From the NCBI GenBank assembly GCA_000004985.1, contig GG738849.1: a DNA stretch of 64,000 nucleotides; one strand, 5' to 3'. Source of the stretch: Naegleria gruberi (taxonomy: Eukaryota). Shown one piece after another: positions 19,850 through 48,505 of this stretch. Made by a program: the position numbers and the translations under genes. Numbering within the stretch: position 1 is the stretch's first letter; each line of letters begins with the position of its first letter. The notes below the pieces were generated by a model that searched no databases, was not told where the DNA came from, and saw only the letters and a program-made list of their open reading frames with translations.

Positions 19850-21271
19850 ATATAATAGAAGGAAGTTTTTAATTTAATGATTGGTTGGAGTAACACGAAT
19901 TGGGTGAGCTTCAGTATTGAAAACAAACTTGTCAATTGGAATGATATGTTTTGGAGAGAATAATAAATAGAGATATTTCAATGTTTCAGCCAAGAAGAAT
20001 GATTGTTGGAAATCGTCGTGAACTGGAGACTGTGTTGCTACATTTCGAAGTCCACTGTAACCACCAGAGGCAATTTTGCATTTTGATTCAATTGCTTGGA
20101 AAATCTTCCATCCCCATTCTCTGTACTTTTCATCACCAGTAACTCTGTACATGATGAAAATACTTTCAACTGTTTCTGGTCTTAATAAATAAGTAGAGAC
20201 ACCAGGGTTAAATTTACCGCTGGCAGTGTCAAAGTGGAAAGTTTCTGGTCCAATTCCTGAAGGCATTTGAGCATAAGTTTCATAACATGTTCTTGTGAAT
20301 TCAGCACCAGTTTCAATTTGACGCTTATTTGAGATTTGGAATCCAGGAGTGGAAACATTGAAATAACCACCCAATGCAAACATACCAGCTGCAAAACATG
20401 CCAAATGGTCAACCTTGTGATGAGCTCTACCTTCGTATTCTGCAACATAGGTATATCCTTGGTTGGATTTGATAACCATATTCTCAAAGATACCCTTCAA
20501 AGTTGCCATGTACATGAATCTATATTTTTCAGCACCCTTTGTTCCTCTATTCAACAACCATTGTTTCAATAAATATTCATAGAATGAATCTCCCAAAGCA
20601 CCCAAAGAAACATAGTTAGAACACCAACTTCCAGAAGTTGGAGATATTTTGAGTGGATATAATCCATTGTCTGGCTTTTTGCTTTCCATGATATCCATAA
20701 CCTTAGTTACAGCATTATGATACTTCATATCCCCAGTCAATTCACTCAATCTTCTGAATTCCAATTGAAGAGAACCAAGTTCGCTCAAAATTGCACAATT
20801 ATTAGCCCAAGCAAATGTCTTTTTGGATCCAGTCTTCAAGTTAATTTCCGAATATGGAATACCAGTTGGTGAAGAGAAGGCAGGAAGTAATCTGTCAGCC
20901 ATATCTTTGGCTTTTTCGAGGAAGATCTTTTCCTTTGTCAAATCATACGCACTCACAAAACCTCCAACAACACGAATAGTTGTTTCAAAAACACTAATTC
21001 CACCATTAATTGTTGAAAATGAAGGCATGTCATTCTTAACATAATTCAATGATTTTTCATATTGTTGTTTCAAACCCATGATAACCATTGTATCAAGTGA
21101 ATCAATCAGTGTCATACCAAAACCTTTTGAGCTAGCAATCCAATTATGATAACCTTTGCTTACTGGTCTATATTCATCCTTTCCCCAAACATGTTCATAT
21201 CCTTTGAATGCGTGAATGAATGCATCTCTTACAGCCTTTCTTTTTTCGTTTGCACTGTCACTCATAAAATC
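19850..21271. repeat. Inverted segmental duplication, arm A (GH47 catalytic domain plus about 20 nt of 3' flank)
   Basis: The reverse complement of about 19850-21271 matches 47081-48505 with long perfectly identical tracts (including the last 170 nt of the CDS and the stop) interspersed with diverged patches. Confidence 0.8.
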
Positions 21272-21871
21272 ATTCTCATAATCGTCAATAGTCATCTGTT
21301 CTGGTTGATAAAGATAAGATTTTGGTCCAACTTTTAATTCCTCAGTCTTTGGTTGTTGAACAACTTCTATATGTTTTTCAACTATTGTTTCCTTTGTTGC
21401 TTCCTTAATTTTGACTTGTTGAATTGGTTGTTTTACATCCCTTGTTGGTGGTGCTTGTTGTTCTTGTTTTTGAGGTGTTTGTGGAGGTTTTGGAATTGGA
21501 GGAGGAACATTTGGTGGAGTTCTCTTTTCTTCTCTTGTTGTTTTAATAATTTCAATTTCATCATGCAACTCCAAATCTTCAATTCTTGGAAGAATTTCAA
21601 AGTTTGACTCTCTAGTATTACCAATTGAAAGAGTTGAAAAGAGGAAGATGAAAAGAACAATTGTTCCGAAGAGGATTAAAGTGTACTTCCAAAAATTACT
21701 AATATCTCCACTAGACTCACTCAGTTTCGAGGAAAAACCCTTCTTGTTATAAACTCCCAGAGGATCCAAATCTGCATCCTTAGAAACTGTTAATAATTGA
21801 GGGTTTACATTTGATCTTTTTATCAAATTTTTCCCCTCCTCAATCCCACTAAAATCGGATGATGATGACAT
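19874..21871 (-). CDS. Glycoside hydrolase family 47 alpha-1,2-mannosidase (type II membrane topology), paralog A
   Basis: 665 aa: cytosolic tail, transmembrane segment YTLILFGTIVLFIFLFSTLSI, Pro-rich stem, then a GH47 catalytic domain (FGMTLIDSLDTMVIMGL, GGISVFETTIRVVGGFVSAYDL, EYLLKQWLLNRG, LRPETVESIFIMYRVTGDEKYREWGW). The 3' two-thirds is near-identical at nucleotide level to the gene at 46594..48480. Confidence 0.9.
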   Translation of the reverse strand: MSSSSDFSGIEEGKNLIKRSNVNPQLLTVSKDADLDPLGVYNKKGFSSKLSESSGDISNFWKYTLILFGTIVLFIFLFSTLSIGNTRESNFEILPRIEDLELHDEIEIIKTTREEKRTPPNVPPPIPKPPQTPQKQEQQAPPTRDVKQPIQQVKIKEATKETIVEKHIEVVQQPKTEELKVGPKSYLYQPEQMTIDDYENDFMSDSANEKRKAVRDAFIHAFKGYEHVWGKDEYRPVSKGYHNWIASSKGFGMTLIDSLDTMVIMGLKQQYEKSLNYVKNDMPSFSTINGGISVFETTIRVVGGFVSAYDLTKEKIFLEKAKDMADRLLPAFSSPTGIPYSEINLKTGSKKTFAWANNCAILSELGSLQLEFRRLSELTGDMKYHNAVTKVMDIMESKKPDNGLYPLKISPTSGSWCSNYVSLGALGDSFYEYLLKQWLLNRGTKGAEKYRFMYMATLKGIFENMVIKSNQGYTYVAEYEGRAHHKVDHLACFAAGMFALGGYFNVSTPGFQISNKRQIETGAEFTRTCYETYAQMPSGIGPETFHFDTASGKFNPGVSTYLLRPETVESIFIMYRVTGDEKYREWGWKIFQAIESKCKIASGGYSGLRNVATQSPVHDDFQQSFFLAETLKYLYLLFSPKHIIPIDKFVFNTEAHPIRVTPTNH

Positions 21872-22068
21872 TTTTTTTGAAATTCGAACATCTCTAACCT
21901 CTTAGCCTTAATTCTCTAAATGTTGTGTTAATACTCTTTGAATAATTTGGGCTGATTCAGAATATTATTATATTATTATTTATTATATATTTATTGAAAT
22001 GAGACAGACAAAAATTGAAAAATTTAGGATACAATCTAGATAACAAGTGTAGAAAAATGGAAATCCAT

Positions 22069-46402: not shown

Positions 46403-46593
46403 GAATATTCTTTGGATAACAATTTTTAACTACATTCTAACTGCTCAACAAAACACATGTAAACTTAATGTAAAAAATAGCTAAGTAAACAACTAAAAAC
46501 ATCTCTGATTCTTTTCAAATATTTCAAAATAATATCAACAACGTCATCACTCCCCAACCTGTGTATTGTAGCAAGCAAAAATAAAAATTAAAA

Positions 46594-48480
46594 ATGAGTC
46601 AACTGAATGATGATGCTTCACCAGTGATGCACTCATCACAAAGTAGTTCTTCTGTTGGAGACCCTGAATTGGGTCAACCTACCAGTAGAAGCACAAGTGT
46701 TGCAACATCTACATCTACACAAAAACGAGGTGTGCAAACTTTTGTTGAAAACCAATCTTTTAATGCTTCTATTACGGAACCGGTTGGTAATTATACAAAA
46801 ACAACAAAAAGTTCAACCTCCAACCTGGCATCCTTCCTCAGAAGAAATAGAAAATTAATAGGATTTATAGTATTATTATTTATTTGCTTTTTGGTGTTTT
46901 TGTTTGTGAAATTTGATATTTTACATTTCTCTCCTGATAAACAAGTTGAATCGGAGCATATCGATTTAATAGATCCTCTTGACGATACGGCATCTGTAGA
47001 TAGAGATGACCATACAATAATTCCTTCATCCAAACCATCTTGGAAGAGGCCAGAATTAATGACCATCGACGATTACCAAAGTGATTTTATGAGTGACAGT
47101 GCAAACGAAAAAAGAAAGGCTGTAAGAGATGCATTCATTCACGCATTCAAAGGATATGAAAATGTTTGGGGAAAGGATGAATATAAACCAATCAGCAAGA
47201 GTTTCCACAATTGGATTCAAAATTCTAATGGTTTTGGTATGACACTGATTGATTCACTTGATACAATGGTTATCATGGGTTTGAAACAACAATATGAAAA
47301 ATCATTGAATTATATTAAGAATGACATGCCTTCATTTTCAACAATTAATGGTGGAATTAGTGTTTTTGAAACAACTATTCGTGTTGTTGGAGGTTTTGTG
47401 AGTGCGTATGATTTGACAAAGGAAAAGATCTTCCTCGAAAAAGCCAAAGATATGGCTGACAGATTACTTCCTGCCTTCTCTTCGCCAACTGGTATTCCAT
47501 ATTCGGAAATTAACTTGAGAACTGGTGAGAAGAAAACTTTCGCCTGGGCTGGTAATTGTTGTCCTCTCAGTGAGTTTGGTACTCTTCAATTGGAATTCAG
47601 AAGATTGAGTGAATTGACTGGTGATGAAAAATATAACAAATTAGTTACTAAGATTATGGATGTCATGTTTAAGAATAAGCCAGCCAATGCCTTGTATCCA
47701 ATCAAATTCCATCCTGATAATGGAAATTGGTGCTCCAATCATGTCTCATTGGGTGCTTTGGGTGATTCATTCTATGAATATTTATTGAAACAATGGTTGT
47801 TGAATAGAGGAACAAAGGGTGCTGAGAGGTATCGTGAACTCTATTTGGAAACTGTTAAAGGAATATTTGATCACATGGTTATCAAATCCAATCAAGGCTA
47901 TACCTATGTTGCTGAGTACAATGGCTCTCCATTCCACAAGGTTGACCATTTGGCATGTTTTGCAGCTGGTATGTTTGCATTGGGTGGTTATTTCAATATT
48001 TCCACTCCTGAATCCCCAATCTCAAATAAGCGTCAAATTGAAGTTGGTGCTGAATTCACAAGAACATGTTATGAAACTTATGCTCAAATGCCTTCAGGAA
48101 TTGGACCAGAAACTTTCCACTTTGATCCATCAAGTGGAAGATTCAGGCCTGGTGTCTCTACTTATTTATTAAGACCAGAAACAGTTGAAAGTATTTTCAT
48201 CATGTACAGAGTTACTGGTGATGAAAAGTACAGAGAATGGGGATGGAAGATTTTCCAAGCAATTGAATCAAAATGCAAAATTGCTTCTGGTGGTTACAGT
48301 GGCTTGCACAATGTAGGTGTTGCTAACCCTACTCAAGATGATTTCCAACAATCATTCTTCTTGGCTGAAACATTGAAATATCTCTATTTATTATTCTCTC
48401 CAAAACATATCATTCCAATTGACAAGTTTGTTTTCAATACTGAAGCTCACCCAATTCGTGTTACTCCAACCAATCATTAA
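46594..48480 (+). CDS. Glycoside hydrolase family 47 alpha-1,2-mannosidase, paralog B (type II membrane protein)
   Basis: 628 aa with transmembrane segment IGFIVLLFICFLVFLFVKF and a GH47 catalytic domain. The last 41 aa are identical to paralog A, with long 100 percent nucleotide tracts against the reverse complement of 19874-21271. Confidence 0.9.
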   Translation: MSQLNDDASPVMHSSQSSSSVGDPELGQPTSRSTSVATSTSTQKRGVQTFVENQSFNASITEPVGNYTKTTKSSTSNLASFLRRNRKLIGFIVLLFICFLVFLFVKFDILHFSPDKQVESEHIDLIDPLDDTASVDRDDHTIIPSSKPSWKRPELMTIDDYQSDFMSDSANEKRKAVRDAFIHAFKGYENVWGKDEYKPISKSFHNWIQNSNGFGMTLIDSLDTMVIMGLKQQYEKSLNYIKNDMPSFSTINGGISVFETTIRVVGGFVSAYDLTKEKIFLEKAKDMADRLLPAFSSPTGIPYSEINLRTGEKKTFAWAGNCCPLSEFGTLQLEFRRLSELTGDEKYNKLVTKIMDVMFKNKPANALYPIKFHPDNGNWCSNHVSLGALGDSFYEYLLKQWLLNRGTKGAERYRELYLETVKGIFDHMVIKSNQGYTYVAEYNGSPFHKVDHLACFAAGMFALGGYFNISTPESPISNKRQIEVGAEFTRTCYETYAQMPSGIGPETFHFDPSSGRFRPGVSTYLLRPETVESIFIMYRVTGDEKYREWGWKIFQAIESKCKIASGGYSGLHNVGVANPTQDDFQQSFFLAETLKYLYLLFSPKHIIPIDKFVFNTEAHPIRVTPTNH

Positions 48481-48505
48481 ATTTATACTTCCTTCTATTA
48501 TTTAA
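47081..48505. repeat. Inverted segmental duplication, arm B
   Basis: See arm A. Identity begins at gattttatgagtgacagtgcaaacgaaaaaagaaaggctgtaagagatgc and extends just past the stop codon (cttccttctattat is shared). Confidence 0.8.

What the first reader, a model, noticed from the sequence alone, without database searches (positions are those of the whole stretch)
19850..48505. Two GH47 alpha-1,2-mannosidase paralogs in inverted orientation about 25 kb apart, with mosaic 100 percent-identity tracts suggesting ongoing gene conversion
The N-terminal tail, transmembrane segment and stem of the two genes are unrelated in sequence. From the MTIDDY...DFMSDSANEKRKAVRD codons onward, the nucleotide sequences alternate between long perfectly identical stretches (for example about 80 nt at the start of the tract and the last 170 nt including the stop and about 20 nt of 3' flank) and clearly diverged patches with many nonsynonymous differences (for example KKTFAWANNCAILSELGS versus KKTFAWAGNCCPLSEFGT). 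That patchwork is the signature of repeated gene conversion between inverted repeats, not of a single recent duplication. The arms bracket 13 genes (aquaporin, cyclase-like receptor, eRF1, DEPDC5, USP, PKA-R and others), so intrachromosomal recombination between them would invert that block.
Basis: seen in the sequence. Interest (0 to 1): 0.6.

Follow-up and report, generated by a model that had tools for sequence, protein, structure and literature searches.

The report
Gene conversion between inverted mannosidase paralogs
Two old, oppositely oriented copies of a Golgi-type mannose-trimming enzyme gene in the amoeba Naegleria gruberi keep overwriting stretches of each other's DNA, which is a clear but ordinary case of gene conversion between duplicated genes.

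Summary
Window 19845-21304 (-) and 47050-48508 (+) form a 1.46-kb inverted repeat with no indel in the coding part. It covers the GH47 catalytic domains of two intact genes, 19874-21871 (-) and 46594-48480 (+), in Naegleria gruberi.

Identity is bimodal. Nine perfectly identical runs of 40-169 nt alternate with patches as low as 14/30 matches (permutation p about 5e-5).

- Within the identical tracts, dS between the copies is 0, while the same codons give dS of about 1.3 against N. lovaniensis.
- Within the patches, dS is 1.09 and dN/dS is about 0.22.
- N. lovaniensis and N. fowleri carry the same two paralogs, also divergently oriented but only about 380 bp apart, each pair with its own identity tracts.
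- Trees flip along the gene: tracts group the two N. gruberi copies (100%), while patches place arm B with the other species' B-type copies and away from arm A (94%).

Recurrent interlocus gene conversion on an old duplication is therefore well supported. Assembly artefact, recent duplication and synonymous constraint are excluded.

Inversion of the 24.7-kb spacer is untested. A chimeric N. fowleri protein hints that crossovers between such arms may occur. This is a new example of a well-known process, of modest interest.

The parts
19874..21871 (-). Arm A gene: intact 665-aa GH47 alpha-1,2-mannosidase ('A-type'), with a single N-terminal hydrophobic anchor. The public model for this gene (P0003, 463 aa) is truncated.
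   Evidence: ORF and translation. PF01532 full length, E 2.7e-157. Membrane segment at aa 65-83, Kyte-Doolittle mean 2.58; motifs SVFET, GDSFYEY, RPETVES and NTEAHP present.
46594..48480 (+). Arm B gene: intact 628-aa GH47 alpha-1,2-mannosidase ('B-type'), 100% identical to the annotated N. gruberi protein P0001.
   Evidence: Membrane segment at aa 87-105, Kyte-Doolittle mean 3.02. Closest solved structure is mouse Golgi mannosidase IA, 1NXC, E 2.6e-123.
19845..21304 (-). Inverted-repeat arm A: the catalytic domain plus about 30 nt of 3' flank.
47050..48508 (+). Inverted-repeat arm B: the catalytic domain plus about 30 nt of 3' flank.
21296..21871 (-). Arm A unique 5' part (cytosolic tail, membrane anchor, Pro/Gln-rich stem). 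It is not homologous to the arm B 5' part.
46594..47058 (+). Arm B unique 5' part (tail, membrane anchor, stem). It is similar to the B-type 5' parts in N. fowleri, N. lovaniensis and Willaertia.
   Evidence: blastp E 1e-8 to 1e-10.
20871..21124 (-). Largest homogenised stretch in arm A: 84-nt and 169-nt perfect runs separated by one mismatch at 21040. The partner in arm B is 47230-47483. It contains the SVFETTIR motif.
47230..47483 (+). Partner in arm B of the largest homogenised stretch.
19871..20014 (-). Terminal 144-nt perfect run in arm A, through the stop codon and into the 3' flank. The partner in arm B is 48340-48483.
20070..20206 (-). 137-nt perfect run in arm A (partner 48148-48284). 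It contains the LRPETVES motif.
20591..20870 (-). Main unconverted region of arm A (partner 47484-47763), interrupted only by a 40-nt identical run. It holds the AILSELGS/CPLSEFGT and KPDNGLYPLKISPTSGSW/KPANALYPIKFHPDNGNW paralog signatures, which are shared with the orthologs in other species.
20420..20528 (-). Second unconverted region of arm A (partner 47826-47934).
20015..20069 (-). Third unconverted region of arm A (partner 48285-48339; LRNVATQSPVH versus LHNVGVANPTQ).
21872..46593 (.). The 24,722-nt spacer between the two start codons. It carries MIP/aquaporin, a 774-aa membrane protein with a weak cyclase match, an ORF-poor 3 kb, eRF1, BART, SelK, a 1280-aa TCAD9 kinase-like gene, DEPDC5/IML1, USP/UCH and a cNMP-binding PKA-R-like gene.

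Best explanation
The window is from Naegleria gruberi. It holds two functional, divergently transcribed Golgi-type GH47 alpha-1,2-mannosidase genes. They descend from a duplication older than the split of N. gruberi from N. fowleri and N. lovaniensis.

Their catalytic-domain DNA has been partly homogenised by repeated, short, non-reciprocal transfers between the two inverted copies. This is interlocus (ectopic) gene conversion, most simply a by-product of homology-directed repair of breaks in one copy using the other as template. The transfers are recent: no difference at all has accumulated in 837 nt of tracts. They are also recurrent and lineage-specific, because each of the three species has its own tract boundaries.

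Conversion has succeeded mainly in the most conserved segments, which carry the catalytic motifs. It has not erased several patches that still carry the ancient A-type or B-type sequence. These patches persist for one or both of two reasons. High divergence there blocks heteroduplex formation, or selection keeps paralog-specific residues. This last step is inferred, not shown.

What is shown: the mosaic, its statistical significance, the age of the duplication relative to speciation, the switch in tree topology, and extension of the tracts into synonymous and non-coding sites. What is inferred: the repair mechanism, the reason the patches resist, and any consequence for the orientation of the 24.7-kb spacer.
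For: - Organism and genes: arm B is 100% identical to the annotated N. gruberi protein, and both arms give full-length PF01532 matches.
- Mosaic: runs of 169/144/137/84/81/79 nt at 100% identity against patches of 14-19/30. Permutation p = 5e-5 on all sites and 1e-4 on independently variable third positions; ortholog controls are not clustered.
- Nei-Gojobori estimates: in the tracts (279 codons, 169 synonymous sites) dS = 0 between the arms, against 1.31-1.35 for the same codons versus N. lovaniensis. In the patches (192 codons) dS = 1.09 and dN = 0.237.
- Quartet sites: 146 are species-wise, 33 fit A-to-748/B-to-631 orthology and 10 fit the reverse. The orthology sites are confined to the patches.
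- Bootstrap bipartitions: in the tracts {NgA, NgB} gets 100%. In the patches {NgB, Nf638, Nl631, Wm610} versus {NgA, Nf768, Nl748, ENA679} gets 94% (amino acids) and 90% (codon positions 1+2). Diagnostic residues split 7:0.
- N. lovaniensis and N. fowleri have the same pair head-to-head, 375-383 bp apart, with their own identity tracts; N. fowleri has a run of about 143 codons.
- Homology runs about 30 nt past the stop codon in N. gruberi and N. lovaniensis.
- Tracts lie in more conserved segments (63% against 39% invariant residues), and the unconverted codons overlap between species (circular-shift p = 0.004-0.05).
Against: - Tracts were defined after seeing the data (at least 12 identical codons), so dS = 0 inside them is partly circular. 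The argument rests on the between-species comparison and the permutation tests.
- Synonymous sites are saturated between species, so ages are only relative.
- Support for NgA being specifically sister to the N. fowleri/N. lovaniensis A-type copies is weak (33-44%). Its N-terminal region shows no significant similarity to theirs.
- Donor direction is unclear: 10 B-like against 3 A-like diagnostic residues.
- There is no rise in GC3 in the tracts.
- There are no population data, so 'ongoing' is unproven.
- A single long heteroduplex with patchy mismatch repair cannot be told apart from many short events.
Confidence: 0.92

Rival explanations
1. A recent duplication followed by rapid, positively selected divergence in the patches. 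The identical tracts would simply be young.
For: Many differences in the patches are nonsynonymous: 64 nonsynonymous against 47 synonymous codon differences.
Against: Patch dS is 1.09, close to the between-species level, and dN/dS is about 0.22, which indicates purifying selection. The patches carry the same A-type or B-type signatures as the N. fowleri and N. lovaniensis orthologs (7:0 diagnostic residues; 94% bipartition). Both other species have the same two paralogs in the same relative orientation.
Confidence: 0.02
2. Assembly artefact: reads from the two paralogs or haplotypes were mixed, or one arm is a spurious duplicate.
For: The N. gruberi reference is an older shotgun assembly (my recollection, not tested here). 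Identical tracts could in principle arise from collapsed consensus.
Against: The arms differ at 161 of 1413 sites and have unrelated 5' halves and flanks inside one 850-kb scaffold. Tracts and patches alternate every 40-170 nt, well below read length, so misassigned reads cannot create the pattern. Independent assemblies of N. fowleri and N. lovaniensis show the same phenomenon.
Confidence: 0.02
3. Nucleotide-level constraint (codon usage, RNA structure or an embedded element) keeps the tracts identical without any DNA transfer.
For: The tracts coincide with the most conserved protein segments.
Against: The same codons have dS of about 1.3 between species and 146 species-specific shared substitutions. 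Each species has different tract boundaries. Identity continues into the 3' flank. No Rfam family matches in the window.
Confidence: 0.01
4. In addition to conversion, the two arms undergo reciprocal crossover. This flips the 24.7-kb spacer in N. gruberi, or the roughly 2-kb centre in N. fowleri, so the locus is polymorphic for orientation and for which N-terminal anchor is joined to which catalytic domain.
For: The N. fowleri protein P0005 (CAG4714216.1) is a perfect chimera. Its stem is 100% identical to the B-type copy and its catalytic patches are 100% identical to the A-type copy of strain ATCC 30894. The switch lies inside the roughly 430-nt identical tract. Perfect inverted tracts of up to 169 nt exist in N. 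gruberi.
Against: A misassembly across the identical inverted tract would give the same chimera. No reciprocal chimera was found. No DNA for P0005 is on record. In N. gruberi, arm B has both a B-type N-terminus and B-type patches, so no net swap is visible. No second N. gruberi assembly could be retrieved.
Confidence: 0.2

Closest known systems
Interlocus (ectopic) gene conversion, or concerted evolution, of linked duplicated genes. Textbook cases recalled from memory include primate gamma-globin genes, RHD/RHCE, red/green opsins and Drosophila amylase. Within Naegleria, gene conversion is mentioned in a paper on the near-identical alpha-tubulin gene family (PMC2115128, listed; I did not read the passage).
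   Same: Old paralogs. Identity tracts that include synonymous and flanking non-coding sites. Tree topology that changes along the gene. Patches of retained divergence. Independent homogenisation in each species.
   Different: The copies here are inverted and divergently transcribed rather than tandem. Only the catalytic-domain half of each gene takes part. The case is in a heterolobosean amoeba, where I found no report for this gene pair.
Inverted-repeat (palindrome-arm) gene conversion, with possible inversion by non-allelic homologous recombination. Cases recalled from memory include human Y-chromosome palindromes and the inverted repeats flanking X-linked inversions.
   Same: Inverted arms bracket unique DNA. 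Conversion occurs between arms. A crossover would flip the spacer.
   Different: The arms are short (1.46 kb) and only 88.6% identical overall, with perfect tracts of at most 169 nt. Known palindromes have arms of many kb at over 99.9% identity. No inversion has been demonstrated here.
Class I (GH47) Golgi alpha-1,2-mannosidase IA, mouse MAN1A1 (PDB 1NXC).
   Same: Best solved-structure match (E 2.6e-123). Full-length PF01532 match. One N-terminal hydrophobic anchor. The sequence is LGALGDS where, from memory, ER mannosidase I has Arg two residues before the Asp, so the genes look Golgi-type rather than ER-type.
   Different: About 45% identity only. Enzyme specificity and localisation in Naegleria are untested.

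Membership tests
Glycoside hydrolase family 47 (class I alpha-1,2-mannosidase) | Full-length match to the GH47 catalytic-domain profile | tested here: met
   PF01532, positions 1-455 of 455. E 2.7e-157 for arm A and 2.7e-156 for arm B.
Glycoside hydrolase family 47 (class I alpha-1,2-mannosidase) | Conserved catalytic and Ca-binding motifs (the Glu in FE-T/N-IR, the Asp/Glu in GDSFYEY, the Glu in RPE, the Thr in NTEAHP). The assignment of roles to these residues is from memory of the human ER mannosidase I literature. | tested here: met
   All four motifs are present in both proteins and align to 1NXC.
Glycoside hydrolase family 47 (class I alpha-1,2-mannosidase) | Type II membrane topology: short cytosolic tail, one signal-anchor, then a stem | tested here: inconclusive
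   Each protein has a single strongly hydrophobic 19-residue window (Kyte-Doolittle mean 2.58 and 3.02) before the catalytic domain. No dedicated topology predictor was run.
Glycoside hydrolase family 47 (class I alpha-1,2-mannosidase) | Alpha-1,2-mannosidase activity on Man9-type N-glycans | not testable with these tools
   This needs an enzyme assay.
Interlocus gene conversion / concerted evolution | The duplication predates the species split, so the paralogs should be more diverged than the orthologs wherever they have not been converted | tested here: met
   The same two paralogs occur in N. fowleri and N. lovaniensis. In the patches the bipartition separating NgB plus the B-types from NgA plus the A-types gets 94%. 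Patch dS is 1.09.
Interlocus gene conversion / concerted evolution | Differences between the paralogs are clustered more than chance, conditioning on sites that are free to vary (a GENECONV-type test) | tested here: met
   p = 5e-5 on all sites and on polymorphic sites; p = 1e-4 on third positions variable in other taxa. Ortholog controls are non-significant.
Interlocus gene conversion / concerted evolution | Within-species identity where between-species synonymous divergence is high, with species-specific shared substitutions | tested here: met
   Tract dS is 0 against 1.31-1.35 between species. There are 146 species-wise informative sites.
Interlocus gene conversion / concerted evolution | Tree topology changes along the alignment | tested here: met
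   In the tracts {NgA, NgB} gets 100%. In the patches NgA and NgB fall on opposite sides of a 94% split.
Interlocus gene conversion / concerted evolution | Tracts are not limited to coding sequence | tested here: met
   Homology continues about 30 nt past the stop codon in N. gruberi and about 28 nt in N. lovaniensis.
Inversion polymorphism by recombination between inverted repeats | Both orientations of the spacer are observed in individuals, strains or reads | not testable with these tools
   Only one N. gruberi assembly could be reached. The only hint is the N. fowleri chimera P0005, which could equally be a misassembly.
GC-biased gene conversion | Raised GC at silent sites inside converted tracts | tested here: not met
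   GC3 is 0.27 in the tracts against 0.30-0.35 outside. Fisher p = 0.08-0.9, and the direction is the wrong one.

The most novel reading that the evidence does not exclude
The inverted GH47 pair could be a recombination-driven shuffling locus. Besides conversion, crossovers inside the identical tracts would flip the DNA between the arms. That would exchange promoters and N-terminal membrane anchor/stem regions between the two catalytic domains. The perfect chimera P0005 in one N. fowleri genome suggests this. In N. gruberi a crossover would invert about ten unrelated genes. If the chimera is real and polymorphic, it would be direct structural evidence of homologous crossover in a genus where, to my knowledge, sex has never been observed.
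Probability: 0.15. Interest if true: 0.55.

Novelty: new member of a known kind. Interest (0 to 1): 0.33.

Why it matters
This is a clean, internally controlled example of concerted evolution in a free-living excavate amoeba. It involves three species, one ancient duplication and three independent sets of conversion tracts.

- **Recombination in Naegleria.** The case shows that homology-directed exchange between copies acts on Naegleria nuclear genes, and that it has acted recently.
- **A warning for phylogenies.** Trees of Naegleria GH47 or other N-glycan-processing genes will wrongly infer species-specific duplications if the whole catalytic domain is used.
- **Candidate specificity determinants.** The patches that resist conversion in all three species are candidates for whatever distinguishes the two enzymes.
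- **A testable locus.** Inverted identical tracts of 170-430 nt give a place where inversion or chimera polymorphism can be looked for in strain collections.

None of this changes current understanding of gene conversion.

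Tried and rejected
- **Synteny, to polarise the 24.7-kb spacer.** tblastx and tblastn of the window against the N. lovaniensis, N. fowleri, Willaertia and ENA-metagenome GH47 loci found nothing shared except the GH47 genes. 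The N. lovaniensis and Willaertia DEPDC5 loci share no neighbours with the window. Gene order is scrambled at this distance; the pangenome paper PMC9928731 also left N. gruberi out of its synteny analysis as too distant. So I cannot say whether the spacer was inserted in N. gruberi or lost in the other lineage.
- **Reciprocal N. fowleri chimera.** A search with the A-type N-terminus returned nothing. DNA for P0005 is not on record.
- **Other N. gruberi assemblies.** Exact-product look-ups for both arms found none.
- **GC-biased conversion.** There is no GC3 excess in the tracts.
- **Donor direction.** 10 B-like against 3 A-like diagnostic residues is too few to decide.
- **Repeats flanking the spacer that might mark a transposition.** None were found; the only other hits are 41-42-nt matches at 71-76% identity, which look like chance.
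- **tRNA and Rfam scans of the window.** Both were empty.
- **Orthology of the arm A N-terminus with the N. fowleri/N. lovaniensis A-type N-termini.** Not significant.
- **Literature.** I found no report of this gene pair.

Full report
**What is there.** The window is from Naegleria gruberi. The protein encoded at 46594-48480 (+) is 100% identical to an annotated N. gruberi alpha-1,2-mannosidase on an 850-kb scaffold. A second intact ORF at 19874-21871 (-) encodes a 665-aa paralog; its public model (P0003, 463 aa) is truncated at the N-terminus. Both give full-length matches to the GH47 profile PF01532 (E about 1e-157). Both carry the four conserved catalytic or Ca-site motifs and a single strongly hydrophobic N-terminal segment. 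Their closest solved structure is mouse Golgi mannosidase IA, 1NXC (E 2.6e-123). The two genes are transcribed away from each other, with 24,722 nt between their start codons.

**Check of the observation.** The repeat finder reports three adjoining inverted blocks at 86%, 94% and 99% identity. The arms (19845-21304 and 47050-48508) align in one ungapped register. In the 1413 codon-aligned positions there are 161 differences. In 30-nt windows, 20 of 48 are perfect and others drop to 14-19 matches. Perfect runs are 169, 144, 137, 84, 81, 79, 63, 62 and 40 nt. The 'last 170 nt' is a 144-nt perfect run followed by about 25 nt of slightly imperfect 3' flank.

Permuting the positions of the differences never produced a run as long as 169 nt (permutation mean 47, maximum 125; p = 5e-5). 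The result holds when only sites polymorphic among six sequences are used. It also holds when only third codon positions that vary among the four other sequences are used (p = 1e-4). Ortholog pairs used as controls show no clustering.

**Related sequences.** N. lovaniensis and N. fowleri each have two GH47 genes of this subfamily. They carry adjacent locus tags and are divergently transcribed, only 383 and 375 bp apart. Willaertia magna has one copy in the 22-kb locus I retrieved, and an unidentified metagenome contig has one. I call the N. lovaniensis 748-aa, N. fowleri 768-aa and arm A lineage 'A-type'. I call the 631-aa, 638-aa and arm B lineage 'B-type'.

**Synonymous divergence.** Tracts were defined as runs of at least 12 identical codons. 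They total 279 codons and 169 synonymous sites.
- In the tracts the two N. gruberi copies have no difference, while the same codons give dS of 1.31-1.35 against either N. lovaniensis copy.
- In the remaining 192 codons the two N. gruberi copies have dS = 1.09 and dN = 0.237, so dN/dS is about 0.22.

The tracts are therefore not slow-evolving DNA, and the patches are not the product of a burst of positive selection on a young duplicate.

**Informative sites and trees.** Among the four N. gruberi and N. lovaniensis sequences, 146 informative sites group the copies by species. Another 33 group A with 748 and B with 631, and 10 group the other way. The orthology-type sites sit in the patches.

Bootstrapped neighbour-joining bipartitions give 100% for {arm A, arm B} in the tracts. 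In the 136 codons that lie outside tracts in all three species, arm B groups with the N. fowleri, N. lovaniensis and Willaertia B-type sequences. Arm A falls on the other side of the split with the A-type sequences and the metagenome sequence. This split gets 94% with amino acids and 90% with codon positions 1+2. At seven residues the N. fowleri and N. lovaniensis A-types agree with each other and their B-types agree with each other but differ from the A-types. At all seven, arm A has the A state and arm B the B state, and none is reversed. The B-type N-terminal regions are also recognisably homologous across species (E 1e-8 to 1e-10).

**Parallel homogenisation.** The N. fowleri pair has a run of about 143 identical codons, and the N. 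lovaniensis pair has several shorter ones. Tract boundaries differ among the three species. In N. gruberi and N. lovaniensis the similarity continues about 30 nt beyond the stop codon, although one N. lovaniensis copy ends in TAA and the other in TGA. This is a DNA-level process repeated independently in each lineage.

**Interpretation.** The evidence fits interlocus gene conversion on an old inverted duplication.

Zero differences at 169 synonymous sites puts an approximate 95% upper bound of 0.018 on tract dS. That is about 1% of the divergence since the species split. 'Recent and recurrent' is therefore justified; 'ongoing' is a reasonable extrapolation.

The tracts fall preferentially in conserved segments: 63% of their residues are invariant among the six non-gruberi sequences, against 39% outside. 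They include all four catalytic motifs. The codons that stay different overlap between species more than circular shifts of the masks predict (p = 0.004-0.05). Two explanations remain open and are not exclusive. Faster-evolving segments may diverge beyond what heteroduplex formation tolerates. Alternatively, selection may preserve paralog-specific residues. The data do not separate them.

Diagnostic residues inside the tracts lean towards B-type as donor (10 against 3), but the numbers are small. There is no GC3 enrichment in the tracts.

**Rivals.**
- An assembly artefact is excluded by the 11% divergence, the unrelated 5' halves and flanks, the fine scale of the mosaic, and its recurrence in two independent assemblies.
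- A recent duplication with selected divergence is excluded by patch dS and by the tree topology.
- Nucleotide-level constraint is excluded by the between-species dS.

**Inversion.** Nothing in the window shows that the spacer has flipped or does flip. The flanks and spacer of the N. gruberi pair share no gene with the N. fowleri, N. lovaniensis or Willaertia GH47 loci. The DEPDC5 neighbourhood is likewise unrelated. Gene order is scrambled at this distance and the origin of the 24.7-kb spacer cannot be polarised. Given that background, it is notable that the two paralogs remain linked and divergently oriented in all three species.

One observation bears on crossover. An N. fowleri protein from another annotation (P0005, CAG4714216.1) is a perfect chimera. 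Its stem is 100% identical to the B-type copy and its catalytic patches are 100% identical to the A-type copy. The switch lies inside the long identical tract. A crossover between the inverted arms would produce exactly this, but so would a misassembly across the repeat. I could not obtain the DNA or find a reciprocal product.

**Spacer content.** The spacer holds the following:
- MIP/aquaporin
- a 774-aa membrane protein with a sub-threshold cyclase match
- an ORF-poor 3 kb
- eRF1
- an ARL2-binding BART protein
- a SelK-like protein
- a 1280-aa TCAD9 kinase-like protein
- DEPDC5/IML1
- a USP
- a cNMP-binding PKA-R-like protein

I count roughly 9-11 genes from ORFs rather than 13.

**Novelty and score.** Gene conversion between linked paralogs, including inverted ones, with retained patches of divergence is textbook. 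A paper on the near-identical N. gruberi alpha-tubulin genes also mentions gene conversion (PMC2115128). I found no report of this gene pair. It is a well-documented new example of a known process. Its practical value is for Naegleria gene phylogenies and as a candidate locus for detecting recombination. Interest: 0.33.

Noticed in passing
L005 7709-12307 (N. fowleri ATCC 30894 GH47 pair) and protein P0005: P0005 (CAG4714216.1, 545 aa, from another N. fowleri annotation) is a perfect chimera of the two paralogs. It has the B-type stem and the A-type catalytic patches, and the switch lies inside the roughly 430-nt identical inverted tract. This is either an inversion of the head-to-head centre by crossover or a misassembly.
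   Followed up: partly
window 26480-29600: About 3 kb with no ORF longer than 125 aa in an otherwise gene-dense region. There is no tRNA, Rfam or Pfam hit. It may be an intron-rich gene, a decayed gene or non-coding DNA.
   Followed up: partly
window 37175-41792: DEPDC5/IML1 is split into two overlapping ORFs in different frames (37175-40159 and 40122-41792). The annotated N. gruberi protein is 1493 aa, which implies a short intron near 40.1 kb.
   Followed up: no
window 19874-21871: The public N. gruberi model for arm A (P0003, NAEGRDRAFT_30575, 463 aa) lacks the N-terminal tail, membrane anchor and stem. These are present in the uninterrupted 665-aa ORF.
   Followed up: yes
L001 1-3691 against L005 16860-19278: N. 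lovaniensis has two tandem acyl-CoA oxidase genes beside the GH47 pair. N. fowleri has one at the corresponding place in the stretch retrieved.
   Followed up: no
L002 4590-8246: The Willaertia magna GH47 locus has a 1218-aa reverse-transcriptase/RNase H (retroelement) ORF 1.7 kb upstream of the single GH47 gene.
   Followed up: no
L003 (ENA ERZ27315067 k141_4371) 8987-11026: A metagenome contig encodes a 679-aa GH47 that is 66% identical to arm B and groups with the A-type side in the unconverted patches. It is probably from an unsampled heterolobosean, and its neighbours (CFAP91, WD40 genes) differ from all the other loci.
   Followed up: partly
window 32983-36825: A 1280-aa ORF matches TCAD9 (ternary complex associated domain 9, E 1.9e-38) and has weak kinase-like hits. 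From memory, this domain is described mainly in prokaryotic conflict systems, so it is unexpected in a eukaryote.
   Followed up: no
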